Source: a virus. From it: a stretch of 64,000 nucleotides of DNA. Both the position numbers and the translations under genes were made by a program. Numbering within the stretch: position 1 is the stretch's first letter; each line of letters opens with the position of its first letter. Below are positions 1 through 26,945 of the stretch, piece after piece. The DNA is taken from the IMG/VR virus record IMGVR_UViG_3300045988_137804, positions 1 to 64,000 of that record; one strand, given 5' to 3'. The notes under the pieces are model-generated. The model searched no databases, had not been told where the DNA came from, and worked only from the letters and a program-made list of their open reading frames with translations.

Positions 1-238
1 TCAAATTCACAGAAGTTTACCAGTTTCCAATCTTTTTTGAATGAATTTATGCTTTTATCAGTATTCATAAAAATCCCTTATTTATAGGGGATTGCGCAAT
101 CTCTTTATTCTAGAATTTACCTGTTTTCACCTTTCTTAATTTTAAAAACTCCTCGCTTTCAAGGCATTTGCAACTACCATGTGAAAGCATAAATTCATTC
201 AAAAAAGATTGGAAACTGGTAAACTTCTGTGAATTTGA
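1..238. repeat. Perfect 55-bp inverted repeat (arms 1-55 and 184-238) with a 128-bp spacer; the left arm runs to the window edge and may extend beyond it
   Basis: The reverse complement of nt 1-55 equals nt 184-238 exactly. The right arm is the 5' coding sequence of the methyltransferase ORF. The spacer contains the hairpin aatccc-N10-gggatt at about 75-100. Confidence 0.85.
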
Positions 239-1679
239 TAAGTATGCAACAAAATCATACTGTGCAATTCATGGTGTAGATGAATCATTGAATCTTGGTG
301 ATATTACAAAAGTTGATGAGACAAATCTTGAACAATTTAATATGATTTGTGGAGGTAGCCCGTGTCAGGATTTTTCTGTAGCAGGTAAACAAAAGGGTTC
401 TGTTTGGACTTGTAAAGAATGTGGACATGAATATAATCCATTAACAGTTCATTGGGCTGAACGTGATAAGTGTCCAAATTGCAACAGTGAAAATATTGAA
501 AAGACAAGATCATCATTACTTGTTGAATATTTAAGAGTTATCAGAGCAAATAAACCAAATTTTGGAATTTATGAGAATGTAAAGAACATTGTCGGTAGAC
601 AGTTTAAAGACACAACATTTAAATTGTTTACTGATGAGTTGGAAGAATACGGATATAACGTGTATTGGAAGGTGCTTAATGCAAAGAATTATGGTATTCC
701 ACAAAATAGGGAGCGTGTGTATCTGATTTTTATTAAGAAAGATTTGGATAATGGTAAGTTTAAATTTCCAGAACCATTTGATAATGGTGTTAGATTGAAA
801 GATTTATTGGAAGACGTTGTTGATCAAAAATATTATCTTAGCAAAGAAGTTCAAGATAGATTCAAGCTAACTGATGATACTTTTACAAAAAATATTATTG
901 GCACAACAAAACCAGAGTTTAGAACAATCGGTCAAAGAGATTTGGTATATCAGAAAGATTCCGTAATGGGTGCATTAGTAGCAATAGATTATAAGCAACC
1001 GAAACAGATTTTGGATAATGATATTAAAACAGTTGCAATTCCACAAGCCACCAAAAAAGGTTACATAGAATGTGAAATTGGTGGAGTTGCAGATTTATCA
1101 TATCCAGATTCTAAAACTAGACGTGGAAGAGTACAAGATGGTGGTAATATTTGTCCAACATTAACTGCTACAGAGACAGGTGTATGTAGAATCGAATCTG
1201 TTGAAGACAAGCCTAAAGAAAGATTTTTTAGACAAGCATTAGATACATTTGATGATTCCGATGCAGAATATGGAGATACAATTGATGCATTTAATAAAAG
1301 AGTAAATAAATCGGGCTGTTCACCTACATTAACGACAAGACCAGAAGGGTTTAAAACAGCTATTTTGCCAGTAACAAATAATTTACGAGTAAGAAAATTA
1401 ACTCCGAAAGAATGCTTTAGACTTATGGGATTTTCGGATGAAAATTTCAATGCAGCACATAATGCAGGTATTTCAAATTCGCAGTTGTATAAGCAAGCTG
1501 GAAATTCAATCGTGGTAGATGTTTTATATTACATATTTGTTGAGCTGTATAAAGCCATGCCATATCTTTTTGATGATTTAAAGTTAAGCAGTTTCTTCTC
1601 AGGAATCGGAGCATTTGAAGTGGCATTGGACAGATTATACAAAGGAATTAATTTTGGAAATTTTACAAATTCACATTAA
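168..1679 (+). CDS. DNA (cytosine-5) methyltransferase, orphan, N-terminally truncated (motif I FxGxGG absent); carries an inserted C4 zinc ribbon
   Basis: Motif IV GGSPCQDFSVAG, motif VI ENV, motif VIII QNRERVYLI, motif IX RLMGF and motif X YKQAGNSIVV are present. EFDKYATKSY resembles HhaI EWDKYAQEVY. A CKECGH...CPNC ribbon sits between motifs IV and VI. The ORF begins at TTG, and no frame of nt 57-183 encodes motif I. Confidence 0.8.
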   Translation: MQLPCESINSFKKDWKLVNFCEFDKYATKSYCAIHGVDESLNLGDITKVDETNLEQFNMICGGSPCQDFSVAGKQKGSVWTCKECGHEYNPLTVHWAERDKCPNCNSENIEKTRSSLLVEYLRVIRANKPNFGIYENVKNIVGRQFKDTTFKLFTDELEEYGYNVYWKVLNAKNYGIPQNRERVYLIFIKKDLDNGKFKFPEPFDNGVRLKDLLEDVVDQKYYLSKEVQDRFKLTDDTFTKNIIGTTKPEFRTIGQRDLVYQKDSVMGALVAIDYKQPKQILDNDIKTVAIPQATKKGYIECEIGGVADLSYPDSKTRRGRVQDGGNICPTLTATETGVCRIESVEDKPKERFFRQALDTFDDSDAEYGDTIDAFNKRVNKSGCSPTLTTRPEGFKTAILPVTNNLRVRKLTPKECFRLMGFSDENFNAAHNAGISNSQLYKQAGNSIVVDVLYYIFVELYKAMPYLFDDLKLSSFFSGIGAFEVALDRLYKGINFGNFTNSH

Positions 1680-1699
1680 GCGAAAGGAACTGTCTATAT

Positions 1700-1993
1700 A
1701 TGGATAATTATTGTCTTAAATATTCAATTTATATTTTTGACGAAGAAGGAAAACTTTATGATTTAGTACATTCTAAATTTGGAATAAAAATAATTATGCA
1801 TACGAAAGAGAAAGGTCATAAAGAACCACATGTGCATGTCAAGTACGAAAATAAAGAAGCAGTGCTAAGTTTGATAGATGGAAGATTTATGAAAGGAAAC
1901 ATACATCCAAACAAAAGGAAATATGCGGAAGAATGGGTAATGAATAACAAAGAGGAACTTCTAAAAAGGTATAAAGAAGTGATTGTTTTATGA
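1700..1993 (+). CDS. DUF4160-family small protein
   Basis: HKEPHVHVKYENKEA matches the DUF4160 HEPPHVHV signature. Its stop overlaps the next start (ATGA). Confidence 0.5.
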   Translation: MDNYCLKYSIYIFDEEGKLYDLVHSKFGIKIIMHTKEKGHKEPHVHVKYENKEAVLSLIDGRFMKGNIHPNKRKYAEEWVMNNKEELLKRYKEVIVL

Positions 1994-2247
1994 ATCACAT
2001 AGAGAACACAATAGCTGTAAAATATGAAAACTTTAAGGAGAGAATAAACATTATGACGATTAAATTTATTAAAGATGTTGTCTTCAAAGACCAAAAAGAA
2101 GACAGTGTAAAGATTAAAAAAGGAAAGATTCTCACAGCAAAGGTTGTAAGAAACGAAGATGGTAAGGAAGAATATGAGATTACTCATAGGAAAAATACAT
2201 TCATGATTCCATCTTCTATGAAAGATGTAGTATTTGAGATTTTGTAA
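1990..2247 (+). CDS. DUF2442-like partner of the DUF4160 protein
   Basis: An 85-aa ORF translationally coupled to the DUF4160 gene, matching the typical two-gene cassette arrangement. Confidence 0.35.
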   Translation: MNHIENTIAVKYENFKERINIMTIKFIKDVVFKDQKEDSVKIKKGKILTAKVVRNEDGKEEYEITHRKNTFMIPSSMKDVVFEIL

Positions 2248-2249
2248 AT

Positions 2250-2819
2250 TTGTTCAGATTCTTTTGGAGAATAAGTAAGTATACAAATAATGATTGCGAG
2301 GTATATAAAATGCTTAACAAAGAACAAAAGAATCTGGTGGAAGAAAATTATAATCTTACATATAAATATGCAAAAGATCACAAGTTGGATATGGAAGAAT
2401 TCAGTGGATTGCTTTCTATTGGTTTGTGTAAAGCTGCGTTAAATTACGATTCAGATAAAACAAAGTTCTCTACGTTTGCATACAGATGTATGGGAAATGA
2501 AGTAAGTAATTATCTGAGAAAAGTTAATGCAGGTAAATACTTGAGACATGATGAAGTATATTCCATGGAAGCATTGAATGAAAACGAGAATAGAGCTATA
2601 GAAGAGACATTTCTTATGACTTCATCGGAGAATATTGAGATAGACTATATGTTCAAGGCTAAGTTTCAGAAAGAATATGACAAGCTGAAAGACCAGGTTA
2701 AGAACATTGTTGCTCTCAAATATCATGGATACACAAACAATGAAGTTGCAGAAATTATGAATATAAAAGCATCTACTATAAGTATGGCTTTGAAAAAGTT
2801 CAAATATGCGCTGGTATAA
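2250..2819 (+). CDS. Sigma-70 family (ECF-like) RNA polymerase sigma factor; the true start is probably the Met at 2310
   Basis: Region 2-like LSIGLCKAALNYD...FSTFAYRCMGNEVSNYLRK, and a region-4 HTH VALKYHGYTNNEVAEIMNIKASTISMALKKF. Confidence 0.65.
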   Translation: MFRFFWRISKYTNNDCEVYKMLNKEQKNLVEENYNLTYKYAKDHKLDMEEFSGLLSIGLCKAALNYDSDKTKFSTFAYRCMGNEVSNYLRKVNAGKYLRHDEVYSMEALNENENRAIEETFLMTSSENIEIDYMFKAKFQKEYDKLKDQVKNIVALKYHGYTNNEVAEIMNIKASTISMALKKFKYALV

Positions 2820-2977
2820 ATGCTATATTATGAGATATATAGATAATATTGTGTGTTGCAATAAATCGTAATACTACATGTAGTATATAAATATATCATC
2901 ACACACTATATATAGTATTAAAATATAGATGAAATGCGAATTTCATTGGTGGAGAATATATAAGCGGAGGTGATAAC

Positions 2978-3502
2978 GTGGGAACAAATTATTACATGAT
3001 GATGAAGGACAAGGAACTTGCAATGAAGTATTTCGATAATGAGTACGAGCTTACAGATACTCCGTATTTTGGCTATGAAGTACATATCATGAAACTGAGT
3101 TATGGTTGGAAACCTTTATTTGAGTGGCATGGGAATGCGTATAAATCAGTAGAAGATATGCTAAAGTTCTTGGAATTTCATAGAATGGATATTGATATTT
3201 TTGACGAATATAATCGAGAATATACCATTGAAGAATTAAAAGAAGAGTTCGTAAGTCATAAAAATGTAAAACCAAGATATATGAAACATATTCCAGAAGG
3301 CATTCCGAATCATACATTTGGTGGTAGAGATTATTTAGCTGAGTCCACTGAGGATGATTATGACATTAAAATGCCATATGACCATGTAGAGTATCATAAA
3401 TTAGATCCTTACAATGAAAAAAGATGGATAGATGAAAGTAGAGAGCCATTATATTTTCACGATAAGGATGGTTATGATTTTACGAAAGGATGGTTCGAAT
3501 AA
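2978..3502 (+). CDS. hypothetical protein (GTG start)
   Basis: An ORF with the RBS aagcggagg upstream; no recognisable motif. Confidence 0.4.
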   Translation: MGTNYYMMMKDKELAMKYFDNEYELTDTPYFGYEVHIMKLSYGWKPLFEWHGNAYKSVEDMLKFLEFHRMDIDIFDEYNREYTIEELKEEFVSHKNVKPRYMKHIPEGIPNHTFGGRDYLAESTEDDYDIKMPYDHVEYHKLDPYNEKRWIDESREPLYFHDKDGYDFTKGWFE

Positions 3503-3612
3503 TGAATAAACCAACATTATGGGTTATGGTTGGCTTGTCTGGAAGTGGTAAATCAAGTGTTGCAAAAGAAATCGCAGAGAATAATCCTAAGAAGGAGATG
3601 AATAACAAATAA
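3502..3612 (+). pseudogene. 36-aa remnant of a P-loop kinase (polynucleotide-kinase-like Walker A) truncated by the downstream homing endonuclease
   Basis: MNKPTLWVMVGLSGSGKSSVAKEIAENNPK resembles the T4 Pnk N-terminus ([20 protein letters not shown]); a stop codon follows immediately. Confidence 0.45.
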
Positions 3613-3641
3613 CAAAAAGAAAAATTTATTGTGGAATATAT

Positions 3642-4477
3642 ATGATACGCAATAAAATAAACGATAAAAAATATATAGGTCAAAGTATAGATATATGGTA
3701 TAGATATAGAAATCATTTGAGTGAATCATATAATGTAAACAAAAAAGCTTACAATATGGCAATTCATAAGGCGATAAGAAAATATGGTAAAAGTAATTTT
3801 GAATTAATTGTTTTAGAAGAATGTCCAAAAGAAAAATTAAATGAACGAGAAATTTATTGGATAGAATATTACGATACATACAATGATGGTTACAATCAAA
3901 CAATTGGTGGGGATACATTAAAAAATACAATTGATAGAGCAAATATATATATCGTCTGTGGGATGAAGGAAAATCTATTAAAGACATTCGTGAAATAACT
4001 AAGCATGGAAAACATCAAATTATTCGTATTTTAGAAGGTTATGATAAATATTCACCTGAAGAAAGCAAGAGAAGAGGATTTTCGTCTGCTTCAAAGACTA
4101 GGGGCAAAACTGTGTATAGATATCAAATGAATGGTGAATATATAGATGAATTTTGGTCAATTGCTGAAGCCGGAAGAAAAACAGGAACAAGAAATACAGA
4201 TATAAGTTTATGCTTAAATGGTTCTCAACAATCTGCAAATAATTATAGATGGAGTTTTGAGAAAAAAGATAATATCGGAGAATACAAAGCGGAGATGGCA
4301 AACAAAAAGAAAGCAGTTATAAAATATGATGAGGACAATAATTTTATTGAAGAATTTGCATCAATTACAGATGCGGCGAAATCAGTAGGGCTAAAAGGTT
4401 TATCTGGAATAATAAAATCATGTGAAAAAGATGTTTTGTGCAAAGGGTATAAGTGGAAATATAAATATCAAATCTAA
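3642..4477 (+). pseudogene. GIY-YIG homing endonuclease (I-TevI-like, with two NUMOD1/IENR DNA-binding repeats) split into two frames at an (AT)5 tract at 3943-3952
   Basis: The N-terminal part in frame 0 (3642-3998) reads KYIGQS...YRYRNH...NFELIVLE...REIYWIEYY...GYN. The C-terminal part in frame 2 (open from 3938 to 4477) reads VYRYQMNGEYIDEFWSIAEAGRKTG...SLCLNG and AVIKYDEDNNFIEEFASITDAAKSVG... Confidence 0.6.
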
Positions 4478-4552
4478 GGAACGTTGGAAGAAAAGGTTTG
4501 GAGAATATAAATATCAGATGCTTTTGGATTTTCATGAATGTGATAAAGTGAG

Positions 4553-4909
4553 GTGAGATACATGAGATGTAATACAGATTTGGAGACTTGGCTGCATGAT
4601 TTCGAAGACGATATATTCCGTATCTTAGTTTACAGAAAGCCTGGTCAGTATACTCCATACGAAGTGGAGAATAAGTTTAGTGATGAGTCTTTATATGTAG
4701 ACAATGAATACAAGAAAGTATTTATTGAAGACGTAATTGAACTACCGGACAAAGATGTTCTGATTGGATTTAGAGAAGTTCTTGATGTGAATCAAAATAA
4801 AGACGGAGAATATGAATGTGAGTTGGCAGATAGCATTGAATATTATAAGCTTTCTGAAATTAAACTGGAATGTTTTAAATGTGATCAAGTGATTGGAGGT
4901 GAGTTCTAA
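4553..4909 (+). CDS. hypothetical protein
   Basis: ORF only. Confidence 0.3.
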   Translation: MRYMRCNTDLETWLHDFEDDIFRILVYRKPGQYTPYEVENKFSDESLYVDNEYKKVFIEDVIELPDKDVLIGFREVLDVNQNKDGEYECELADSIEYYKLSEIKLECFKCDQVIGGEF

Positions 4910-5169
4910 TGGATATTTTCCAAAACATTGTATTGATCTTCATGGGAGTATTGCTCTTAGGAATTTTGGTTGCATTTTCAATCCTATTAGAGAAGTTCAT
5001 GGAGCTGTCAGACGAAGTACATAAGAAACTCTTTGAAATGTCAGTAGAGAATAATACAAATGTAGATGATGGATTCATTCTTGGAGATGAGTTCTTGACA
5101 GAAGACGAATTGACAAATGAAAGCGATGAAGATTCAAGAGAAGAATTCGGAATTTATTCTGAACGATAA
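4909..5169 (+). CDS. small membrane protein with an acidic C-terminus
   Basis: A transmembrane segment IVLIFMGVLLLGILVAFSILL followed by an acidic tail; ATG overlaps the previous stop. Confidence 0.3.
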   Translation: MDIFQNIVLIFMGVLLLGILVAFSILLEKFMELSDEVHKKLFEMSVENNTNVDDGFILGDEFLTEDELTNESDEDSREEFGIYSER

Positions 5170-5384
5170 AAGAGTAATAGTATTATGGTTATACGTCAGA
5201 TATGAGGACAAATTCTTGCCGTAATCGTTCAAGATTAACAATTGGATACTGAAAAATAAAGAACTGAATTTGCTCTATGTATATATCAAATAGTAAGCAA
5301 TATATGATGTATTTTTGGACTTAAATTAGCTTAATTAAACTAACTAATTTTTGTATAAATATTTAAAAAAGAGGAGAAAGAAAA

Positions 5385-6965
5385 ATGGTAAATGAGATTA
5401 TTAATGGACTTGGTGTTTTAGTTCCTGTAGTGATTGTAGGAGCAGGTGGAATTGGAATTGTTGGTTCTGGATATGTAAAAGCATCGCCAGATAAAGCCTA
5501 TATCATTTCTGGTTTAAGAAAAGATCCAAAAGTTCTTATTGGAAAAGCTGGGCTTAAGATTCCATTCTTTGAAAAGAAAGACGAGCTAAATCTTCAGTTA
5601 ATTCCAATTGATGTAAAAACATCAAGTGCAGTTCCAACAGCAGATTACATCAACATTAACGTTGATGCAGCAGTAAACGTAAAGGTAAGTAGCGACACAG
5701 AAAGACTTAAACTTGCAGCAGAGAACTTTCTTAATAAACCAACTGACTACATTGGACAGGTTGCAAGAGAAGTTCTTGAGGGTAATATGCGTGAGATTGT
5801 TGGCAAAATGAACTTGGAAGAAATGGTTTCCGATCGTCAGAAGTTTGCAGAACTCGTAAAAGAAAATGCCGAACCAGATCTTGCTGCAATGGGACTCGAC
5901 ATTGTGAGCTTCAATGTACAGAATTTTGTTGATGAAAATGGAGTAATTGAAAATCTTGGTGTTGACAACATTGTTAAAATTCAGAAAAATGCAGCTATTT
6001 CAAGAGCTGATAGCGAAAAAGAAATTGCCAAGGCTCGTGCTATGGCTAAAAAAGAAGCGAATGATGCAGAGGTAACTTCTGAATTGGAAATTGCAAATGC
6101 TCAGGCTGAAGCACAGAAGAAGAAAGCAATTGTACAGGCTAACGCAGATAGAGAGTCAAGAGAAGCTCAAATTGCAGCAGACACACTTATTGCACAGAAA
6201 GAAAATGAACTTGAAATTAAAAAAGCAGAACTTCAGAAAGATGCTGATACGAAAAAGGCTTCAGCAGATGCAGCTTATAGTATTCAGGAAGAAAATGAAA
6301 GAAAATCTGTGGAGATTGCTACGGCAGATGCTAATCTTGCTAAACAGGAAAAAGCTGTGGAGATTAAAGAGAAAGAGATTGCACTCACAGAAAAAACTCT
6401 TGAAGCTACTGTAAAGAAACAGGCTGAAGCAGAAAAATATGCAAAACAGCAGGAAGCAGATGCAAGACTGTATGAAACACAGAGAAAATCAGAAGCAAAT
6501 CTTTTTGAGAGACAGAAAAATGCTGAAGCAGAGAAGTTTGAACGTGAGAAAGAAGCTGAAGCTATGAAAGCAACAGCAGAAGCTAACAAATATGCTATGG
6601 AACAGGAAGCAGAAGGTATTCGTAGTAAAGGACAGGCTGAAGCCGATGCAATCAAAGCAAAAGCTCTTGCAGAAGCAGAAGGTATTCAGAAGAAAGCAGA
6701 AGCAATGAAACAGATGGGTGAAGCAGCAGTTCTTGATATGTATTTCAAAGCTATGCCAGAAATCGCCAAGAATATCGCAGAACCTCTTGCCAAAGTTGAC
6801 AAAATTACAATGTATGGAGATGGAAACTCTTCAAAATTGATGAAAGATATCATGAACACTCTTAATCAGGTTACAGATGGTATGAAAGAGTCAACTGGAA
6901 TCGACTTAAATTCTATTCTTGCAGGTTTTGCAGGTGCTAAAATTGCTGAATCTACAGACAAATAA
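5385..6965 (+). CDS. Flotillin-like SPFH/band-7 protein (FloT/YuaG-like)
   Basis: An N-terminal transmembrane segment, an SPFH core (IPIDVKTSSAVPTADYININVDAAVNVKV), a long EA-rich coiled coil and a flotillin C-terminus; a strong RBS aagaggag lies upstream. Confidence 0.75.
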   Translation: MVNEIINGLGVLVPVVIVGAGGIGIVGSGYVKASPDKAYIISGLRKDPKVLIGKAGLKIPFFEKKDELNLQLIPIDVKTSSAVPTADYININVDAAVNVKVSSDTERLKLAAENFLNKPTDYIGQVAREVLEGNMREIVGKMNLEEMVSDRQKFAELVKENAEPDLAAMGLDIVSFNVQNFVDENGVIENLGVDNIVKIQKNAAISRADSEKEIAKARAMAKKEANDAEVTSELEIANAQAEAQKKKAIVQANADRESREAQIAADTLIAQKENELEIKKAELQKDADTKKASADAAYSIQEENERKSVEIATADANLAKQEKAVEIKEKEIALTEKTLEATVKKQAEAEKYAKQQEADARLYETQRKSEANLFERQKNAEAEKFEREKEAEAMKATAEANKYAMEQEAEGIRSKGQAEADAIKAKALAEAEGIQKKAEAMKQMGEAAVLDMYFKAMPEIAKNIAEPLAKVDKITMYGDGNSSKLMKDIMNTLNQVTDGMKESTGIDLNSILAGFAGAKIAESTDK

Positions 6966-6998
6966 TCTGTACATAGTTTAATTTTACACATTCCAACT

Positions 6999-7535
6999 TT
7001 GCATAGTGTCACAGCTATGCAGAGTATTTCTAAAAATAATATGAGAGGAAGTGATTGTGTGGTTAATTTAGAACCACGGATGATGCAAAAAGTACAAAAG
7101 TGTTTAGAAACACATGTTGGTGGTGAAGCATATTTTAATGAATTAGACGCTGCGATTAAATCAGATGAAAATCTTTTGAAGTCTTTCATTAATCGCATTG
7201 TCATAGAAACGAAGTGTCGCAACTTTGTAATGTCAGGTGAAATTGGTGTTGTATATTCTAAATTATATTCATACGATGACATTCATTTGTTGTTGCTGCC
7301 AGGTGGCTTGAGACACGATAAAGAAATTCCTTATGACATTGGGAGAATATATGAAGGAATGGAATTTGTATTCGTAGACGATTCATATTACTCAGGAAAA
7401 ACTTTGAATGCTGTGAAGAAATATATGGAATCTACTGGTGCAAAAATCATTGCAAATTATGTTTTCTACGATGGTAGCAGAGAAAATAAAGATAATGTGA
7501 GATCAATTTACAGATATTATGATCATCACGAATAA
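6999..7535 (+). CDS. Phosphoribosyltransferase (PRTase type I) domain protein; start uncertain (candidate Met codons at 7042 and 7077)
   Basis: PRPP-binding-like motif EFVFVDDSYYSGKTLNAV. Confidence 0.45.
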   Translation: MHSVTAMQSISKNNMRGSDCVVNLEPRMMQKVQKCLETHVGGEAYFNELDAAIKSDENLLKSFINRIVIETKCRNFVMSGEIGVVYSKLYSYDDIHLLLLPGGLRHDKEIPYDIGRIYEGMEFVFVDDSYYSGKTLNAVKKYMESTGAKIIANYVFYDGSRENKDNVRSIYRYYDHHE

Positions 7536-7549
7536 GGAGAATAACATAT

Positions 7550-7747
7550 ATGGGAAGAAAATTCAGATGGTTGGATGCAATCAGGACAATGAATGTAAAT
7601 GATCTTGCACCATATTTAATAAAGGAATGTTTCAATTTTCATGATGGAACATGGTGGTCATCTCCAAGTGGTAATAAATTTGATTATCATGATGATGCTC
7701 TTGAAGATTGTATTCGGTGGTTAAATTCTAAATATGATGGGAGATAA
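7550..7747 (+). CDS. hypothetical protein
   Basis: ORF with the RBS ataaggaga. Confidence 0.3.
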   Translation: MGRKFRWLDAIRTMNVNDLAPYLIKECFNFHDGTWWSSPSGNKFDYHDDALEDCIRWLNSKYDGR

Positions 7748-7755
7748 TAATTATT

Positions 7756-8127
7756 ATGGGATGGTATGAAGAGTACAAGACTGATGAATATATAAAAAGT
7801 CTCCAGTCTGTAGTAGAAGGATTAAAAACAAAAGATAAGACAATTAATTCACTACAAGAAGAGAATAATAGATTGAGAGATGAACATTACAAGGATGGAG
7901 AGTTAAAGAAATTGCAAGAAAAAATTGATAAGTTGCAAGGCGACTGTAATAGAGGATTTCCAATTAGTTTCAATGAGCAAGAAGTGATTGATGAATTTCG
8001 AGAAGAACACAAGAAGGAATGTCCTCATTGTAGCTTCAAATACATATTTGAGCCTTATTCGATTGTTGAGTTTGGATATCTAAAATGCAATGTTTGTGGT
8101 GAAGAAATAAAATTTGCAGAACGGTGA
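7756..8127 (+). CDS. hypothetical coiled-coil protein with a C-terminal zinc ribbon
   Basis: CPHCSF...CNVCGEE. Confidence 0.3.
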   Translation: MGWYEEYKTDEYIKSLQSVVEGLKTKDKTINSLQEENNRLRDEHYKDGELKKLQEKIDKLQGDCNRGFPISFNEQEVIDEFREEHKKECPHCSFKYIFEPYSIVEFGYLKCNVCGEEIKFAER

Positions 8128-8169
8128 TGGAGAATAAGTAATTAAAGGTTATAGAAAGGAGTTTGTGAA

Positions 8170-8592
8170 ATGAGATTTTCTGAAGCAATCGAACATCTTC
8201 TTAACGGAGAACGCATAAAGGAAGCGTGTTGGGAAAATGGTTATTACATCAAGCTGGAAAACGACAAAATTGTGGATTGTGATGGATCAGCAGAAGTGTT
8301 CGATAGTAAAGACATTATATCTAACGATTGGGAGCTATATCAGCCTAAATTAGATGTAGGTGCGGTTATTCAATACAATGACGGTACAATCGGAATTGTG
8401 CTTAGTTTATCTGAACTAGATAAGGAATACATCATTTTAGATGAGAATTGGTGCGTAGAAACAGTGAATGAAAGCCAGGTTTCATTAATCAATATTGACT
8501 ATGGAAAAGTTAGTTTGCATGAAGATTCTGCGAGTAAAAATCTCAAAAGTATAGTTTTATCATTACAGATGATTTCAGAGTTAGTAAATTAA
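8170..8592 (+). CDS. hypothetical protein
   Basis: ORF with the RBS aaaggag. Confidence 0.3.
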   Translation: MRFSEAIEHLLNGERIKEACWENGYYIKLENDKIVDCDGSAEVFDSKDIISNDWELYQPKLDVGAVIQYNDGTIGIVLSLSELDKEYIILDENWCVETVNESQVSLINIDYGKVSLHEDSASKNLKSIVLSLQMISELVN

Positions 8593-8666
8593 TGATTTTA
8601 TCCACTACGAAGTGGAGAATAAATAAGTATAAAGTTTAAGTTTCAAAGATTAAAGGAGAAAACATT

Positions 8667-9311
8667 ATGAGTACAATTGAGAAAATGAGTGTTCACAAAG
8701 CATTAGCAGAGTTAAAGATTATTGATTCCAGAATTGAGAGATCAATTGATGATGCACAGTTCTGTGTAGCAAACAAACATTCTAATGAAAAGATTAATGG
8801 TATTCCGGTTGAGGACGCTAAGAAGTTAATGGTTGGAAGTTACGACAAAGCATCAGATCTTATTAAGAGAAGAAATGCAATCAAGAGAGCAGTTGTGCTT
8901 TCTAATGCTAAGACAATTGTTACGATTGCAGACAGAGAATATACTGTTGCAGAAGCAATTGAGATGAAAAATCATGGCATTGAGTTTGAGGAATTTCTTT
9001 TAAATGAAATGAGATGTCAATACGCAGATGCTAATAGAACTATCTCAGCAGAGAATGGCGAAAAACTGAGTGAAAGAGCAGATAAATTTGTCATTGACAT
9101 GTATGGATCAAAAGAGGGTAAAACAAATACTGCTGATTTTGAGAAAGCAAAGAAAGATTTTATCACAGCAAATTCTTATGACTTGGTTGATCCACTTGAT
9201 ATCAAGAAGAAGATTGATGAATTGGAAGAATATATCTCAAACTTCAAGACAGAAGTAGATGCTGCATTAAGTGTTAGCAATGCTATTACAGAAACTACTG
9301 TAGAGTATTAG
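8667..9311 (+). CDS. hypothetical protein
   Basis: ORF with the RBS aaaggagaa. Confidence 0.35.
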   Translation: MSTIEKMSVHKALAELKIIDSRIERSIDDAQFCVANKHSNEKINGIPVEDAKKLMVGSYDKASDLIKRRNAIKRAVVLSNAKTIVTIADREYTVAEAIEMKNHGIEFEEFLLNEMRCQYADANRTISAENGEKLSERADKFVIDMYGSKEGKTNTADFEKAKKDFITANSYDLVDPLDIKKKIDELEEYISNFKTEVDAALSVSNAITETTVEY

Positions 9312-9740
9312 AGAATATATAAATAGGAAATTATTTCACTGTTTGCTGAAAACTTAGAACTACAATCATTCAGACTTTTGCAAGTATAGCCTGAATCAAA
9401 ATAATAAAGAAGCTTGCAACATAATAAAACATAAAAAGCAAGTATAGCAAATTATTACAGGAATGCTTGATGCACAGTGTTGAGCGTTTATAAATTACAA
9501 GATGACTGTAAAGAGTAAAGTTCAAATGTCAAGTAGTAAAGCTCAAAATTCAAAGATTATTTTTTATGTAAAGTTTAAGCAGTAAATAGTAAAGATATAA
9601 AGTTTTATAAAATCTTCGACAAACAGTTTTCAGTATGATTGTACTTGGCTGTAAGTTGTCTGCGAAGCTAGTAAATGGTGAATTAATTAATAAATGTCAA
9701 CCTACATAATAATATGCATAGTTGTCGTGAGGGTTGGCAA
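9312..9740. repeat. AT-rich non-coding region with iteron-like direct repeats: AGTAAAG in at least 4 copies and GCAAGTATAGC in 2 copies
   Basis: gagtaaagttcaaa, tagtaaagctcaaaa, atgtaaagtttaag and tagtaaagatataaag; ttgcaagtatagcctg and aaagcaagtatagcaaat. Confidence 0.4.
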
Positions 9741-9744
9741 ATAT

Positions 9745-9833
9745 GGATCATTACATCAACTGGTAAGATGAGCTGCCTCATAAGCAGAAAGCCCTAATAA
9801 GGTATAAACTGGGTTCGACTCCCAGATGATCCA
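9745..9833 (+). tRNA. Class II (long variable arm) tRNA whose anticodon loop CUCAUAA gives anticodon CAU; identity unclear
   Basis: Acceptor ggatcat/atgatcc, D-arm catc-aactggtaa-gatg, anticodon stem gctgc/gcaga, 20-nt variable arm, T-arm ctggg-ttcgact-cccag. Confidence 0.5.
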
Positions 9834-9969
9834 CTGTATCTGAATATTCACAGAATGTGTTATTCGTTTCCTTTCTTTCTATGAACATTCTAGTTCAGAT
9901 ACAATGTTTTTCATAACTTCCTTTTGTTTGGTTGGCAACTTACCATATAGACAAAAAAGTTGCAATAAT

Positions 9970-10038
9970 GGGCTGTGGTGTAATGGTAGCACATAATACT
10001 TTGACTATTATAGATCCAGTTCAAATCTGGACAGCCTA
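9970..10038 (+). tRNA. tRNA-Gln (anticodon UUG)
   Basis: Acceptor gggctgt/acagcct (G1-U72 wobble), anticodon arm taata-cttTTGac-tatta, T-arm ccag-ttcaaat-ctgg. Confidence 0.6.
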
Positions 10039-10124
10039 GCTTGTGAGATTTTGGAACGTCTCACAAATATTACTCCTTTCATGGGTTATTTATAGTGCAA
10101 AAGATGTGCAGAAATGCACATCGA

Positions 10125-10208
10125 GCTGGCATGGCGGAATTGGTAGACGCAATGGACTTAAAATCCATCGGTAAAAACACACCATACGAGTTCGAGTCTC
10201 GTTGCCAG
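10125..10208 (+). tRNA. tRNA-Leu (anticodon UAA), class II
   Basis: Acceptor gctggca/tgccagt, anticodon arm atgga-cuUAAaa-tccat, variable arm ggtaaaaacacc, T-arm acgag-ttcgagt-ctcgt. Confidence 0.7.
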
Positions 10209-10367
10209 TATTAGCCATATGAGACACTTATTCCCTGAGCAAGAATGATGAAGTCGGTACAAAAGTGCTCAATTTCTGTATTTTACATTCGTGTGTTATG
10301 CAAGCAGCACGAATGACATATGGCATTAACCCCCAACATAGGGTATTTACATTTTACAAAAATGGTT

Positions 10368-10437
10368 TGGCTGTTAGTTCAGTGGGAAGAACATCTATTG
10401 CAAGAGAGGGTCACAGGTTCGAGTCCTGTACAGTCAA
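10368..10437 (+). tRNA. tRNA-like element, possibly a pseudogene: canonical acceptor, D- and T-arms but no foldable anticodon stem
   Basis: Acceptor tggctgt/acagtca, D-arm gttc-agtgggaa-gaac, T-arm acagg-ttcgagt-cctgt; only 20 nt lie between the D- and T-arms, and the stem there is poor. Confidence 0.3.
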
Positions 10438-10501
10438 CTTGACGCAGAAAACATTTGATTTTTGCATTCATGTTTTGCACGCCTCATTTCTTCAATGTGC
10501 A

Positions 10502-10623
10502 AAGTAGATTGTTAGTTCATTGGTAGAATATCTTATTGAAAAATAATGTAATCCTGTTCTTTTCGCTTTCTTAACGATGTGATGCATTATTAATAGGAAG
10601 AAACACGTTCGAATCGTGTGCAA
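10502..10623 (+). tRNA. tRNA-like element with a roughly 50-nt insertion at the anticodon-loop position (possible intron-containing or disrupted tRNA; the loop starts uuGAAaa)
   Basis: Acceptor agattgt/gcaatct, D-arm gttc-attggta-gaat, half-stems tctta (10527-31) and tagga (10590-94), T-arm acacg-ttcgaat-cgtgt. Confidence 0.3.
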
Positions 10624-10714
10624 TCTATCAGTCTTGGTTGACTTACCACTTTCAAACGAGGACTTTAAATTCGGTAGTAAAGTGGAGAATAATAATCATA
10701 GGTGGTGAAAAATT

Positions 10715-11056
10715 ATGAGATGTCCGTATTGTGACAAAGAAATGATTAAGAAGTACAAGATTAAGCACTTCTGTAATTTCGATGATCCGTGTGACTCATG
10801 GGAAAAAGAAATACATATCTGTAAGAAGTGTGGTATCAAGAAAGTAGATGGCAAGTGGAAGATTCCACATAAGTACAGAAGACCATCAACTAATCAGATT
10901 CGCAGATGCAAGACTTTAGCTAAGATACACGACATAGATTTTGAGCCACTTCTTGCCAGACAATGCAAGAGATTCATCACAACAATGCTGAAAAAGTTAT
11001 ATGTTCAGGATCATTATTGTGATGGAGAACTCCATATCATTGGAGAGAATAAATAA
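10715..11056 (+). CDS. hypothetical zinc-finger protein
   Basis: CPYC...CKKCG. Confidence 0.35.
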   Translation: MRCPYCDKEMIKKYKIKHFCNFDDPCDSWEKEIHICKKCGIKKVDGKWKIPHKYRRPSTNQIRRCKTLAKIHDIDFEPLLARQCKRFITTMLKKLYVQDHYCDGELHIIGENK

Positions 11057-11074
11057 GAAAAGGAGATAAGAAAC

Positions 11075-11314
11075 ATGACAAGAGAAGAAAGAATGCAGAA
11101 AAGAAGAGACGCAGGTAAGGTTTATACTTACAAGAAAAATCCTTACGAGAAAGGAACTAAAGAGTGGGTTAAGGAAGAATGTGCGAGAGCAGAGAAAAGA
11201 AAATCCAAGAAACCACATTACGCTAAGATGACTTCTGTGTTTGCCAAGTTAGATAATGAGCTTGCAAAGGCTGAACTTGCTGCAAAGAAGAAGTCTAAAA
11301 AAGAGGGTAAGTAA
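11075..11314 (+). CDS. small basic protein
   Basis: Lys/Arg-rich; RBS aaaggag. Confidence 0.3.
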   Translation: MTREERMQKRRDAGKVYTYKKNPYEKGTKEWVKEECARAEKRKSKKPHYAKMTSVFAKLDNELAKAELAAKKKSKKEGK

Positions 11315-11551
11315 ATGAGAGAAACTTTATTTTGGATTACCATTATCGTTGGAATCGGACTTGGTATTTACACTGGTGGTTGGTTGTTATTTATTAAACC
11401 GATTATTGTTGCATGTGCTGCATATGACGCAGGGACACTTACAGGAAGTATGATTGGATGGACAATTATCAAATGTTTGGTGTTTGCACCAATTGTTGCA
11501 AGAGTAATTATAAATGTTACACTTACGATTGCAGGAGATATTTTGGATTAA
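11315..11551 (+). CDS. small membrane protein (2-3 TM segments)
   Basis: Hydrophobic segments WITIIVGIGLGIYTGGWLLFI and LVFAPIVARVIINVTLTIA. Confidence 0.35.
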   Translation: MRETLFWITIIVGIGLGIYTGGWLLFIKPIIVACAAYDAGTLTGSMIGWTIIKCLVFAPIVARVIINVTLTIAGDILD

Positions 11552-11572
11552 TTTCAATAGGAGAACAAACCA

Positions 11573-11848
11573 ATGATAGAGATTATCGAAACTAATCTTG
11601 CTATAGATGAGAATAAAGATATTAGAGATCATCAGTCTAGAGTAGTTCTTGCAGATGATTGGGAGTCTTATTGCGAAGCATATGAAAAGTATGACGGATC
11701 AAGAGTGACATTTCCATCAAAGAGTCCTGGTGCTAGTATCTATGAAGACAGTAAAATAGAAGATTTAGAATATGACGAGTATCATTTGCATTGCAGAATT
11801 AATAAAGTATATTTTACAGATACAAGATTGGCATACAAAATCAGTTAA
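11573..11848 (+). CDS. hypothetical protein
   Basis: ORF with the RBS ggagaa. Confidence 0.3.
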   Translation: MIEIIETNLAIDENKDIRDHQSRVVLADDWESYCEAYEKYDGSRVTFPSKSPGASIYEDSKIEDLEYDEYHLHCRINKVYFTDTRLAYKIS

Positions 11849-11943
11849 TCACTTTTGAGCAATTCGCTCACAATTTCAAATCAAAATTGAATAGAGAATA
11901 TAAATTTAGAGGTTGCACAGCGTACCTTTGGTTTCTTGTAAAA

Positions 11944-11980
11944 TTGACACACTATATATAGTGTTTATAAATAATATAAA
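11944..11980 (+). promoter_or_regulatory. sigma-70-like promoter TTGACA-N16-TATAAA upstream of the SSB-like gene
   Basis: aaaattgacacactatatatagtgtttataaat; a second TTGACA follows about 45 bp downstream. Confidence 0.35.
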
Positions 11981-12133
11981 TACAATATATTGACATAAAA
12001 ACACCATAAAATCGCTGTTTCATATAGATTTTTGCATAAATTTATTTTTGTGTTCCGTCCGGTTGGGCGTTTAGATAGATTGTTTTATTAACAATATTTA
12101 CATAAATTTTTTATTTTTAAGGAGGATTTTCTG

Positions 12134-16671: not shown

Positions 16672-16688
16672 AGGAAGTGGTGGTTTAA

Positions 16689-17711
16689 TTGGATATCGAA
16701 TCTCTCAAAGAAAATATACTAGAAAATGATTTAATACCAGTAGTTTTAGAAGAAGTTGGATGTCATCATATCAAACATAGAGATGGGTTTTATCAATGTG
16801 CAAATCCAGATGGTGATAACACAACAGCGGTTTGTGTGTATGAAAATACCAATTTAACCACCATTAATTATACAAGAGATATAACAAACGGAAGAAAAGG
16901 TTCTGATTTAATCTCTTTAGTTGAATTTTATAAGAACGAAACATTTCCACATGCAATCAAATGGATTTGTGATGTTCTTGATATAGATTACTATTCTAAT
17001 CCAGAAGATGAACTTCCAGAAAGTCTTAAATTGACGAAAATGTTGTTAGATTTACAGGAAAATGACAATGTGGAAGAAGAGGAAAAACCATTAAAACCAA
17101 TCTCTGAAAGAATTCTTTCCTATTATAAGCCTTATGTAAATGACATGTTTCTTGAAGATAATGTTGATTACGATACACAGTCAGAATTTGAGATTGGATA
17201 TGATGAAGAAAGTAACAGAATAACAATTCCTATAAGAGATGATTTGGGAAATTTAGTTGGTGTAAAAGCAAGGTATTTTTATAGAGAAGTGCCAGAAGAT
17301 ACTATGAAATTTATCTATCTTGAAAAATGTGCAAGGTCACAAATCTTATACGGTCTGTATAAAACAATCAATTTTATAAAACAGAAAAAAAGAGTATTTG
17401 TTGTAGAAGCAGAAAAGGGTGTTCAGCAATTATGGAATGCTGGATATCAAGAAGCTGTTGCAACTGGTGGAAAAAAGATAACGCAATGTCAAATTAATAA
17501 ACTAACAAGACTTTGTGTTCCGATCATTTTTGTTTTTGACAAGGATGTTGAAAAAGAAGAATTGGATTCTATAGCAAAGCGTTTTATAGACGAAGTTGAG
17601 ATTTATGCATTGATAGATAAAGATGGAATTTTATCTAAGAAAGAATCACCGACAGATAATATAGAAAAATTTGAACAATTATTAAATAAGAATATTTATA
17701 AATTACGATAG
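16689..17711 (+). CDS. DNA primase (DnaG-like; zinc-binding N-terminus plus Toprim domain)
   Basis: CHHIKHRDGFYQCANPDGD zinc-binding region; Toprim VFVVEAEKGV...IIFVFDKDVEKE. Confidence 0.65.
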   Translation: MDIESLKENILENDLIPVVLEEVGCHHIKHRDGFYQCANPDGDNTTAVCVYENTNLTTINYTRDITNGRKGSDLISLVEFYKNETFPHAIKWICDVLDIDYYSNPEDELPESLKLTKMLLDLQENDNVEEEEKPLKPISERILSYYKPYVNDMFLEDNVDYDTQSEFEIGYDEESNRITIPIRDDLGNLVGVKARYFYREVPEDTMKFIYLEKCARSQILYGLYKTINFIKQKKRVFVVEAEKGVQQLWNAGYQEAVATGGKKITQCQINKLTRLCVPIIFVFDKDVEKEELDSIAKRFIDEVEIYALIDKDGILSKKESPTDNIEKFEQLLNKNIYKLR

Positions 17712-17718
17712 GAGTGAT

Positions 17719-26932: not shown

Positions 26933-26945
26933 GAGAGTATTTATT

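What the first reader, a model, noticed from the sequence alone, without database searches (positions are those of the whole stretch)
1..240. Perfect 55-bp inverted repeat at the window start that coincides with loss of methyltransferase motif I
The reverse complement of nt 1-55 is identical to nt 184-238, which is the 5' coding sequence of the C5-methyltransferase ORF. The left arm reaches the window edge and could be longer. The MTase has motifs IV, VI, VIII, IX and X in the canonical order but no FxGxGG (motif I). No frame of the 128-bp spacer encodes it, and the ORF starts at a TTG right at the repeat boundary. This suggests an inversion or fold-back rearrangement with a breakpoint inside the MTase 5' end, giving an inactive or alternatively initiated enzyme. 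Other readings are an invertible segment switching MTase expression, a terminal inverted repeat or hairpin end of a linear genome, or a chimeric assembly artefact. The spacer also holds a hairpin (aatccc-N10-gggatt with a T-run on the minus strand) that would terminate leftward transcription.
Basis: seen in the sequence. Interest (0 to 1): 0.55.

Follow-up and report, generated by a model that had tools for sequence, protein, structure and literature searches.

The report
Flip-switch for a phage DNA methyltransferase
The perfect 55-base inverted repeat is an assembly scar left by a real 128-bp invertible DNA cassette that supplies or removes the start codon of a methyltransferase gene in a ~205-kb gut phage, and the enzyme is intact because its "missing" motif I sits at the C-terminus.

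Summary
The repeat is real: window 1-55 is the exact reverse complement of 184-238.

Window 47-11,993 is identical to a 204.6-kb phage genome (LR756492.1). Only bases 1-46 differ; there the reference has the end of another methyltransferase (MTase) gene.

The true element is a 127-129-bp cassette (window 56-183) between 9-bp cores (TTATGCTTT / AAAGCATAA). Public assemblies hold it in both orientations with identical breakpoints. One orientation supplies a ribosome-binding site, ATG and the codons MNTD in frame with the MTase (ON). The window's orientation leaves only a weak TTG (OFF).

Among close relatives, 20 protein clusters are ON and 24 are OFF. Four ON/OFF pairs are otherwise identical.

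The window joins an ON-type left junction to an OFF-type right junction. This is the path a k=55 de Bruijn assembler would take through a mixed population.

The MTase is not truncated. Motif I (FFSGIGAFE, 1593-1619) follows motif X, a circular permutation conserved in 118 of 120 relatives.

No recombinase was found, and switching within one sample is inferred, not shown from reads.

The parts
1..46 (-). Reverse-complement copy of MTase codons (of 193-238). This is the flank of an ON-type junction and is not the true genomic neighbour.
   Evidence: These are the only positions that differ from LR756492.1 over 11,993 compared bases: 34 mismatches, all at or before position 46. In the reference the 3' end of a 308-aa C5-MTase gene lies here. 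The same R'-core-S junction is seen, inside long contigs, in ON-state assemblies L016, L017, L019 and L020.
47..55 (.). Left 9-bp core inverted repeat, TTATGCTTT (crossover region). With flanks it is an imperfect ~13-bp repeat, GAAWTTATGCTTT.
   Evidence: It is the identical boundary of the flipped segment in every locus.
56..183 (-). Invertible cassette S (128 bp; 127-129 bp in relatives). Its coding-sense strand is the minus strand in the window, so the window shows the OFF orientation.
   Evidence: Both orientations occur between the same flanks. L019 and L020 are ON; L021-L026 are OFF with identical flanks. L016, L017 and L029 are ON; L001, L013 and L015 are OFF.
66..68 (-). ATG start codon carried by the cassette. 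After a flip it reads ATG AAT ACT GAT AAA AGC ATA AAT TCA TTC = MNTDKSINSF.
   Evidence: Flipping S in silico gives a 502-aa ORF, MNTDKSINSFKKDWKLVNFCEFD.... Natural proteins with this N-terminus exist: P0003, P0004, P0034, P0035 and others.
74..78 (-). Shine-Dalgarno-like AGGGA, 5 nt upstream of the cassette ATG.
   Evidence: Sequence ataAGGGAtttttATG. Function is inferred.
72..93 (.). On the ATG-sense strand it overlaps the SD-like element.
   Evidence: It is present in the minimum-free-energy folds of both strands, but overall z-scores are only -1.4 and -2.4. The terminator scan did not call it.
151..164 (-). Terminator-like hairpin plus T-run at the upstream end of the cassette (in the ATG sense).
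   Evidence: It is the only terminator-like site found in 1-400. A role in insulating the switch from read-through is inference.
184..192 (.). Right 9-bp core inverted repeat, AAAGCATAA. It lies inside the coding sequence, within codons 5-7 of the ON protein (AAA AGC ATA = K-S-I).
168..1679 (+). C5-cytosine DNA methyltransferase ORF as it reads in the OFF orientation (TTG start, MQLPCE...). The sequence from 184 onward is shared by both states.
   Evidence: PF00145 match, E=4e-59. It is 100% identical to public P0001/DAR44076.1. The AF2 model matches M.HhaI with E=8e-19 and TM 0.70 per target.
351..377 (+). Motif IV, GGSPCQDFS (catalytic Cys).
   Evidence: P65 and C66 are nearly invariant (at least 90%) in the 60-sequence alignment.
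408..503 (+). Zinc-ribbon insertion between motifs IV and VI, shared with the SPbeta MTase.
   Evidence: Pfam Zn_ribbon_8/HypA hits at residues 41-114. It aligns with the equivalent CxxC...CxxC segment of M.SPbeta.
1494..1517 (+). Motif X, QAGNSIVV.
   Evidence: G445 and N446 are invariant.
1593..1619 (+). Relocated motif I (FFSGIGAFE; SAM-binding glycine loop), now C-terminal to motif X.
   Evidence: It is present in 118 of 120 relatives, and none of the 120 has an N-terminal motif I. S478, G479, G481, A482 and E484 are invariant across 60 sequences down to 43% identity. It aligns to M.HhaI residues 12-30 and M.SPbeta residues 4-20. AF2 predicts strand 471-476 and helix 482-495 at pLDDT 91-96.

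Best explanation
Three things are superimposed.

(1) A site-specific invertible cassette.
- It spans window 56-183 between 9-bp cores at 47-55 and 184-192.
- It sits between two MTase genes of an uncultured ~205-kb phage.
- One strand carries an SD-like element, an ATG and the codons MNTD.
- The right core lies inside the MTase reading frame.
- In one orientation the MTase is read as MNTDKSINSF... (ON).
- In the other, shown in the window, only a TTG with a poor ribosome-binding site remains, and the cassette ATG reads into a 16-codon dead end (OFF).
- The phage population holds both states. I infer a phase-variation or bet-hedging switch for self-methylation: protection from host restriction enzymes versus exposure to methylation-dependent restriction.

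(2) An assembly chimera.
- The window's contig was assembled from such a mixture.
- Its first 55 nt (46 nt of reverse-complemented MTase plus the 9-bp core) is the k=55 de Bruijn vertex of the ON junction.
- It is joined through the shared cassette to the OFF junction.
- This gives a perfect inverted repeat that no single molecule has.

(3) A circularly permuted enzyme.
- The MTase is complete.
- It belongs to a large natural family related to the SPbeta-type multispecific enzymes.
- The first strand, glycine loop and helix (motif I) have moved behind motif X.

Shown: the anatomy, both orientations in independent assemblies, the permutation and its conservation.
Inferred: the expression effect, active switching within one population, the k=55 origin, and the biological role.
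For: Repeat and chimera:
- The repeat is exact.
- Window 47-11,993 has 0 mismatches to LR756492.1. All 34 differences lie in 1-46. There the reference has the end of a 308-aa C5-MTase gene.

Inversion:
- With S held fixed, the OFF layout is L|core|S|core|R, in L001, L010, L013, L015 and L021-L026.
- The ON layout is R'|core|S|core|L', in L016, L017, L019 and L020.
- The window is R'|core|S|core|R.
- L019/L020 (ON) and L021-L026 (OFF) share identical flanks. They come from eight sequencing runs, three with neighbouring accession numbers.
- The ON state lies inside a 108.6-kb MEGAHIT-style (k141) contig.
- There are 20 ON and 24 OFF protein clusters. Four ON/OFF pairs are identical at every residue after the leader.

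Contig ends cluster at the cassette:
- The SPAdes-style (NODE_) contig L003 starts at window 138, which is 192-54.
- L015 ends at 192.
- L027 starts 61 nt before the core.
- L011 ends 22 nt after the core.
- L029 starts 52 nt before the left core.

Start codon: an in-silico flip gives a 502-aa ORF behind AGGGA-N5-ATG.

Same leader and core on other MTases:
- Y in L012 matches PF00145, E=5e-30.
- X in L014 matches phrog_757, DNA methyltransferase, E=1e-57.

Permutation:
- The de-permuted sequence aligns with M.SPbeta, E=1e-69.
- The PF00145 score rises from 200.8 to 209.2 bits on de-permutation.
- The C-terminal segment aligns to M.HhaI motif I.
- 118 of 120 relatives carry it, and its residues are invariant.
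- At least 33 full-length permuted clusters occur among the best 150 representatives at 50% identity.
- AF2 gives pLDDT 91-98 over residues 411-490, and the model has the M.HhaI fold.
- Engineered M.MpeI and M.SssI permutants with new N-termini at residues 35 and 33 are active in vivo (PMC5944983).
Against: - No serine or tyrosine recombinase was found in the 64-kb window, within 10 kb upstream of the cassette or 10 kb past the window's end, or in any fetched locus (Pfam; PHROGs; phmmer with Hin, XerD, FimB and Cre; contexts). About 120 kb of the genome could not be read.
- The perfect core is only 9 bp.
- No sigma-70-type promoter was detected in the cassette.
- The OFF state keeps a TTG with AAGG 3 nt upstream, so OFF may mean low rather than zero.
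- No reads were available. Coexistence of both states in one sample rests on the window's own structure and on contig breakpoints.
- I could not verify that window position 1 is a contig end, or that k=55 was used.
- No methylation or expression data exist.
Confidence: 0.8

Rival explanations
1. The two orientations are fixed differences between phage strains. The inversions were rare past events and there is no programmed switch. The window start is a chance mis-join.
For: No recombinase gene was found near the cassette. The repeat core is only 9 bp. ON and OFF versions of the same allele were found in different samples, never demonstrably in the same one.
Against: Four allele pairs are identical over about 500 residues but differ in orientation. 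The flanks are also identical. This implies repeated recent flips with exact breakpoints. At least six contigs from different assemblies end within about 70 nt of the cassette. The window itself needs k-mers of both junction types from one assembly.
Confidence: 0.1
2. The repeat is a pure technical fold-back artefact, such as a template-switch or snap-back chimeric read extending a contig end, with no biological inversion behind it.
For: The left arm sits at the window edge. The arms are 100% identical. The switch point coincides with a short natural inverted repeat.
Against: The same R'-core-S junction is present inside long, independently assembled contigs, read as an intact ATG-initiated gene. 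A technical artefact would not recur with the same breakpoints in other data sets and assemblers.
Confidence: 0.05
3. This particular genome really carries an inverted duplication of the MTase 5' end (R'-S-R), possibly much longer than 55 bp.
For: The left arm reaches the window edge, so its length is unknown.
Against: The window is base-for-base identical to LR756492.1 from position 47 to 11,993, and that genome has the other MTase gene upstream. All five contigs carrying the identical 503-aa protein have mostly the same neighbours. None of the roughly 20 cassette-bearing contigs fetched has R'-S-R. An arm of exactly 46+9=55 nt fits a common assembler k-mer.
Confidence: 0.04
4. One reading: a rearrangement truncated the MTase, removing motif I and inactivating it or forcing alternative initiation.
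For: There is no N-terminal FxGxG, and there is a TTG start without a good ribosome-binding site in the window orientation.
Against: Motif I is present at the C-terminus and is as conserved as the catalytic motifs. No family member has it at the N-terminus, including bacterial members at 55-72% identity. Dozens of clusters at 50% identity share the topology.
Confidence: 0.01

Closest known systems
Invertible expression switches (invertons): E. coli fimS (9-bp repeats, FimB/FimE), Clostridioides difficile flgB and cwpV switches (RecV), Bacteroides invertible promoters
   Same: A short DNA segment bounded by short inverted repeats is flipped precisely. Orientation decides whether the adjacent gene has its expression signals. 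Populations hold both states. The size (128 bp) and the 9-bp perfect core resemble fimS and the C. difficile flg switch (from my own knowledge and PMC5386303, listed).
   Different: Here the cassette carries the ribosome-binding site, the start codon and the first codons. The right-hand recombination core lies inside the coding sequence. No sigma-70 promoter was detected in it. It is on a large phage genome, and no recombinase gene is nearby.
Gene-altering programmed inversions with sites in the 5' coding region (Mycoplasma pulmonis vsa/hsd expression-site system; phage Mu Gin and P1 Cin tail-fibre switches; Type I hsdS 'epigenetic invertons')
   Same: The recombination site is embedded in coding sequence, so an expression site with a start and leader is joined to alternative downstream sequences. 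Targets are specificity or defence-related genes, including DNA methylation systems (PMC9881135; PMC7672463).
   Different: There is a single downstream gene per genome, so the switch is ON/OFF rather than a choice among silent copies. The alternative MTases R, X and Y occur in different genomes, not as a shufflon in one genome. The repeats are far shorter than the 22-bp minimum used in that survey.
Phase-variable DNA methyltransferases (phasevarions; inverton-controlled MTases of gut bacteria)
   Same: Stochastic ON/OFF control of a DNA methyltransferase (PMC7394358 listed; PMC11741434 listed).
   Different: Those are bacterial, mostly N6-adenine Type I or III enzymes, and many switch by repeat-tract slippage. 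This one is an orphan C5 MTase of a phage, where the methylated genome is the phage's own.
Naturally circularly permuted C5-MTases (M.BssHII, M.Alw26I, M2.Eco31I, M.Esp3I, M2.BsaI) and engineered permutants of M.MpeI, M.SssI and M.HaeIII
   Same: Conserved C5-MTase motifs occur in circularly permuted order. This is compatible with the close N- and C-termini of the fold and with a duplication-and-truncation origin (PMC5944983).
   Different: All natural cases reported there are cut in the variable region, so motifs IX-X precede I-VIII. Here only motif I is moved, giving the order II-III-IV...X-I. The cut is between motifs I and II, close to the engineered cp35M.MpeI and cp33M.SssI. That paper's REBASE search found no natural permutant other than the variable-region type.
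SPbeta/phi3T-type multispecific phage C5-MTases (M.SPBetaI, mtbP)
   Same: It is the closest characterised relative I compared: 33% identity over 433 residues after de-permutation. The zinc-ribbon insertion after motif IV is the same, and the target-recognition region is variable and of multi-domain length.
   Different: The SPbeta enzymes have motif I at the N-terminus and are not known to be controlled by an invertible cassette.
De Bruijn-graph mis-joins at invertible regions
   Same: The contig starts exactly one k-mer (55 nt) into a path that re-enters its own reverse complement. Other assemblies break at the same element.
   Different: The artefact here points to real heterogeneity rather than being noise.

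Membership tests
Inverton (site-specific invertible phase-variation switch) | Segment bounded by inverted repeats | tested here: met
   9-bp perfect cores TTATGCTTT/AAAGCATAA, about 13 bp with one mismatch, flank a 127-129-bp segment in all loci.
Inverton (site-specific invertible phase-variation switch) | Both orientations occur in nature with identical breakpoints | tested here: met
   OFF in L001, L013, L015 and L021-L026; ON in L016, L017, L019, L020 and L029; flanks are the same. There are 20 ON and 24 OFF protein clusters, and 4 ON/OFF pairs are identical at every residue after the leader.
Inverton (site-specific invertible phase-variation switch) | Both orientations coexist within one population or sample | tested here: inconclusive
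   Support is indirect only. The window joins an ON-type junction and an OFF-type junction, and contigs end at the cassette. No reads were available.
Inverton (site-specific invertible phase-variation switch) | A cognate serine or tyrosine recombinase | tested here: not met
   None was found in the window, within 10 kb upstream of the cassette or 10 kb past the window's end, or in 28 related loci. About 120 kb of the phage genome and the host genome could not be searched, so absence is not shown.
Inverton (site-specific invertible phase-variation switch) | Orientation changes expression of the adjacent gene | not testable with these tools
   At sequence level, SD+ATG is in frame in only one orientation. 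No transcript, protein or methylation data exist.
C5-cytosine DNA methyltransferase (Pfam PF00145) | Catalytic motifs IV (PCQ), VI (ENV), VIII (QxRxR) and X (GN) | tested here: met
   PF00145 match, E=4e-59. Invariant residues E136, N137, V138, Q179, R181, R183, G445 and N446; P65 and C66 are nearly invariant. The AF2 model matches M.HhaI, E=8e-19.
C5-cytosine DNA methyltransferase (Pfam PF00145) | Motif I (FxGxG SAM loop) present | tested here: met
   FFSGIGAFE at residues 476-484. It aligns to M.HhaI 12-30 and M.SPbeta 4-20.
C5-cytosine DNA methyltransferase (Pfam PF00145) | Canonical motif order I to X | tested here: not met
   Motif I follows motif X.
C5-cytosine DNA methyltransferase (Pfam PF00145) | Methylates cytosine C5 in DNA | not testable with these tools
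   Needs an enzyme assay or methylome data.
M.BssHII-type circularly permuted C5-MTases | New N-terminus in the variable region, so motifs IX-X precede I-VIII | tested here: not met
   The N-terminus lies between motifs I and II. Motifs II-X keep the canonical order. Definition from PMC5944983.
SPbeta-type multispecific phage MTases | Sequence family with a zinc-ribbon insert after motif IV and a long multi-TRD variable region | tested here: met
   E=1e-69 to mtbP, with the zinc ribbon aligned. Variable-region length differs among alleles, 437-619 aa. Multispecificity itself was not tested.
Terminal inverted repeat or hairpin telomere of a linear genome | Located at the physical end of the genome in related genomes | tested here: not met
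   The locus is internal, at 33.6 kb of 204.6 kb and about 70 kb of 108.6 kb.
Assembly chimera at a contig end | The adjacency is absent from independent assemblies of the same sequence | tested here: met
   LR756492.1 is identical from window 47 onward but different in 1-46. No other contig shows R'-S-R.
Assembly chimera at a contig end | Lies at a contig end, with arm length equal to the assembler's k | not testable with these tools
   The window's source contig was not found. 55 = 46+9 matches a common SPAdes k. SPAdes-style (NODE_) contig L003 starts at 192-54.

The most novel reading that the evidence does not exclude
This would be a virus-encoded epigenetic bet-hedging switch. A large gut phage would flip a 128-bp start-codon cassette to produce both methylated and unmethylated progeny. 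The recombinase is unidentified and not encoded nearby, so it could be host-encoded or of a non-canonical type. The recombination core is embedded in a shared MNTDKSINSF leader. That leader would mark a 'methyltransferase slot' into which at least three unrelated MTase genes have been exchanged among related phages. One of them represents a natural C5-MTase topology (motif I last) that a 2018 REBASE survey did not find in nature.
Probability: 0.35. Interest if true: 0.8.

Novelty: new variant of a known kind. Interest (0 to 1): 0.6.

Why it matters
- Phase variation of DNA methylation is known as a bacterial strategy. Finding it on a phage genome would mean viruses also hedge between evading classical restriction (methylated) and evading methylation-dependent restriction (unmethylated). 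This is directly testable with existing metagenomic reads and long-read methylation calls.
- A 2026 paper claims the first putative invertons on gut viral genomes (PMC13501310). This locus would be a clear, mechanistically readable example.
- It gives a natural, widespread example of a C5-MTase permuted between motifs I and II. All natural permutants surveyed in 2018 were of another type (PMC5944983).
- Public annotations of this gene (TTG start, MQLPCE...; for example DAR44076.1) describe the OFF state and mis-place the N-terminus.
- Perfect k-mer-length inverted repeats at contig starts can be used as flags for invertible DNA.

Tried and rejected
- **Source contig.** An exact search for the window's left junction in IMG/VR found nothing. 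A search for the cassette found 1 viral and 4 metagenome contigs, none being the window's contig. I therefore could not show that position 1 is a contig end.
- **Recombinase hunt.** I ran Pfam on 30 further ORFs of at least 150 aa, PHROGs on 10 unannotated ORFs, and phmmer with Hin, XerD, FimB and Cre against 366 ORFs of the window and all loci (best E=0.8). Nothing was found. Walking further along the genome was blocked, because only window proteins can be looked up. One step past the window end showed only structural genes.
- **Promoter.** No sigma-70-like site lies in the cassette, and no cassette 11-mer recurs elsewhere in the window in a way that suggests a phage promoter motif.
- **RNA.** There are no Rfam matches in 1-6000. 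Cassette folding is not exceptional.
- **First AF2 run.** With 39 close homologues it was unusable (mean pLDDT 42.9). A 60-sequence alignment with diverse permuted members gave pLDDT 74.3 and pTM 0.75.
- **Bacterial genomes.** The cassette core is absent from GTDB representative genomes. A degenerate junction probe gave 3 hits in unrelated taxa, about the ~1 I calculated for random sequence. I judged these chance hits and did not inspect them.
- **Same-sample ON/OFF pairs.** Three allele pairs were looked up, and the ON and OFF contigs came from different samples.
- **Cultured relatives.** There are none. The helicase's best hit is 34.6% identity to Geobacillus virus E3. DNA hits covered only short MTase segments.
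- **Accession LR756492.** It is not mentioned in the searchable literature.
Full report
**Observation**

The reverse complement of window 1-55 equals 184-238 exactly, with 128 nt between the arms. No such match occurs in 100 shuffles. The arm at 184-238 is the 5' part of a 503-aa ORF (168-1679, TTG start) that matches Pfam PF00145, C5 DNA methylase, with E=4e-59. So the repeat is real in the window.

**What the neighbourhood looks like elsewhere**

An exact look-up of the downstream 97-aa gene and of the MTase itself found the same locus in a 204,597-bp phage record, LR756492.1. An ungapped comparison shows 0 mismatches between window 47-11,993 and that record. All 34 differences fall in window 1-46. 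In the reference, the sequence left of position 47 is the 3' end of a separate, complete 308-aa C5-MTase gene. Only the 9-mer TTATGCTTT (47-55) and its complement AAAGCATAA (184-192) form a natural inverted repeat there. Window 1-46 is therefore not the true neighbour of position 47.

**The real element**

I collected about 20 contigs that contain the 128-bp 'spacer' (S) and lined them up with S in one orientation. Two layouts appear.
- OFF layout: upstream MTase (L) | TTATGCTTT | S | AAAGCATAA | 503-aa MTase (R). It occurs in L001, L010, L013, L015 and L021-L026.
- ON layout: R' | core | S | core | L', meaning S is flipped relative to both flanks. It occurs in L016, L017, L019, L020 and L029.

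L019 and L020 (flipped) and L021-L026 (unflipped) have identical flanks, and the breakpoints are always the 9-bp cores. L016 is an internal part of a 108.6-kb MEGAHIT-style (k141) contig. The flipped state is therefore not a contig-end effect.

**What the flip does**

On the strand that is 'minus' in the window, S ends with ...ataAGGGAtttttATGaatactgatAAAAGCATAA. When S is flipped, this ATG reads MNTDKSINSFKKDWKLVNFCEFD..., in frame with the whole MTase, giving a 502-aa protein. Proteins with exactly this N-terminus are in the public collection: P0003, P0004, P0034, P0035 and others.

In the window's orientation the frame has only three possible starts:
- a TTG at 168, with AAGG 3 nt upstream;
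- a TTG at 288;
- the first in-frame ATG at codon 59.

In that orientation the cassette ATG reads into a 16-codon ORF, antisense to the upstream gene.

Among the 120 best 90%-identity clusters, 20 start with MN..KSIN (ON) and 24 with MQLPCESIN (OFF). Four ON/OFF pairs are identical at every residue after the leader. I infer an ON/OFF (or high/low) translational switch. No expression data exist.

**Why the window has a perfect 55-bp repeat**

The window is R'(46 nt) | core | S | core | R. Its left junction is the ON-type junction and its right junction is the OFF-type junction. In a de Bruijn graph with k=55, the 55-mer AAAGCATAA plus 46 nt of R (184-238) is the first vertex shared by both states. 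A path that starts at its reverse complement, runs through the shared cassette and re-enters R gives exactly a 55-nt perfect inverted repeat at the contig start.

The junction k-mers (window 1-56 through 46-101) cannot come from OFF-state molecules. The source data must therefore have contained ON-state junctions as well.

Contig ends cluster at the cassette, which is consistent with this:
- SPAdes-style (NODE_) contig NODE_6_length_160806 starts at window 138, the 55-mer ending at 192.
- L015 ends at 192.
- L027 starts 61 nt before the core.
- L011 ends 22 nt after the core.
- L029 starts 52 nt before the left core.

As an arithmetic aside only: a 204,834-bp JGI contig carries this gene. That length is within 1 nt of 204,597+238, the size expected for the circle plus cassette-and-flank copies at both ends.

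I could not retrieve the source contig. The contig-end and k=55 steps therefore remain inference.

**The methyltransferase is not truncated**

The ORF ends ...QAGNSIVVDVLYYIFVELYKAMPYLFDDLKLSSFFSGIGAFEVALDRLYKGINFGNFTNSH. The segment after motif X is a motif I.
- Moved to the front, the protein aligns collinearly with the Bacillus phage SPbeta MTase from LRVMSLFSGIGAFEAAL (residue 4) to residue 433, E=1e-69.
- The segment aligns to M.HhaI residues 12-30.
- De-permutation raises the PF00145 score from 200.8 to 209.2 bits.
- 118 of 120 relatives carry FxSGxGAFE in the last 60 residues, and none has motif I at the N-terminus. These include proteins named from Anaerobutyricum, Coprococcus, Coprobacillus and Eubacterium.
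- In a 60-sequence alignment reaching 43% identity, S478, G479, G481, A482 and E484 are invariant. So are the catalytic residues ENV, QxRxR and GN.
- Of the best 150 representatives at 50% identity, at least 33 full-length sequences are permuted. There are also 16 C-terminal and about 12 N-terminal fragments of the same type. These sit beside about 38 canonical sequences.
- An AlphaFold2 model from the diverse alignment (mean pLDDT 74.3, pTM 0.75) predicts strand 471-476, a loop and helix 482-495. pLDDT is 91-98 over residues 411-490.
- The model's best PDB match is M.HhaI, E=8e-19, TM 0.70 per target.

**Literature on the permutation**

A 2018 study reports that all natural permuted C5-MTases (M.BssHII and others) are cut in the variable region. 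It also reports that a REBASE search found no other natural type. Engineered M.MpeI and M.SssI permutants starting at residues 35 and 33 were active in vivo (PMC5944983). I found no later description of a motif-I-last class. That search covers open-access text only.

**A methyltransferase slot**

The same cassette, core and SINSF leader precede two other enzymes in related phages.
- Y in L012 (OFF; PF00145, E=5e-30).
- X in L014 and L011 (ON; phrog_757 'DNA methyltransferase', E=1e-57; no Pfam hit).

Both have the same downstream genes, including the sigma factor, as the window. The upstream gene is always another C5-MTase.

**What is missing**

- No serine or tyrosine recombinase is encoded in the window, within 10 kb upstream of the cassette or 10 kb past the window's end, or in any fetched locus. 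About 120 kb of the genome and the host were out of reach.
- No sigma-70-like promoter was found in the cassette. A terminator-like hairpin lies at its upstream end (164-151, minus strand).
- Rfam finds nothing in 1-6000.

**Comparison and verdict**

The element works like an inverton of the fimS or C. difficile flg type. It resembles expression-site systems whose recombination site lies in the 5' coding region. It differs in three ways:
- it carries the start codon;
- it sits on a phage;
- it lacks a nearby recombinase.

Phase-variable MTases are known in bacteria. Putative invertons on gut viral genomes were first claimed in 2026 (PMC13501310). I rate this a new variant of a known kind, with interest 0.6.

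The finding as written is a mis-read assembly scar. Underneath it is a real and rather neat biological switch, plus an unrecognised enzyme topology.

Noticed in passing
window 39853-44318 (+): Three consecutive ORFs look like a Tn7/Tn5053-type transposition module inside the phage genome. The first is a 602-aa protein with a Mu-transposase C-terminal domain. The second is a 419-aa TniB/AAA_22 ATPase. The third is a 466-aa TniQ protein.
   Followed up: no
window 3490-4556: A 296-aa AAA_33/KTI12-type kinase gene is intact in relative L016 (13602-14492). In the window it survives only as residues 1-29 (3502-3588) and 269-296 (4470-4553). The middle is replaced by a GIY-YIG/NUMOD homing-endonuclease gene. 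That endonuclease is itself split into two ORFs (3642-3998 and 4112-4477). It is one 277-aa ORF in L014.
   Followed up: partly
related proteins P0031, P0038, P0048, P0049 (homologues of window 168-1679): Some alleles of the same MTase carry a ~390-aa intein (Pfam PF14890 and PF13403). It is inserted in motif IV, between GGSPC and QDFS.
   Followed up: no
L012:1527-2498; L014:8054-8812 (-): The slot downstream of the cassette holds different MTase genes in related phages. One is a 323-aa C5 MTase. Another is a 252-aa phrog_757 MTase with no Pfam match and no PDB sequence match. All are fused to the same SINSF leader and recombination core.
   Followed up: partly
window 168-185; public protein DAR44076.1 (P0001) and JGI P0002: Public gene calls give this MTase a TTG start and the N-terminus MQLPCE (or LQLPCE). 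That is the OFF-orientation reading. The biologically meaningful N-terminus is probably MNTDK, from the flipped cassette.
   Followed up: yes
L019-L022 and L024 about 5160-6300 (locus coordinates vary): In one sub-lineage an IS605 OrfB/TnpB (Cas12f-like) gene of 381 aa lies about 1.1 kb downstream of the switched MTase. It is absent from the window.
   Followed up: no
window 44379-45524 (-): An endolysin combines an Amidase_2 domain with choline-binding repeats. The MTase relatives come from Lachnospiraceae-type bacteria. Together these point to a Gram-positive gut host.
   Followed up: no
window 24941-38203: There is a dense nucleotide-metabolism and replication block. It includes FolD, ThyX, an NAD-dependent DNA ligase, guanylate kinase, a 5'-nucleotidase, a radical-SAM activase and dUTPase. 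RecJ, a DnaB-like helicase and a primase lie upstream at 15142-19446.
   Followed up: no
window 1700-2247: A DUF4160 gene (97 aa) and an overlapping 85-aa ORF sit directly after the MTase in this lineage. Relatives L019-L026 have a 64-aa ORF there instead.
   Followed up: no
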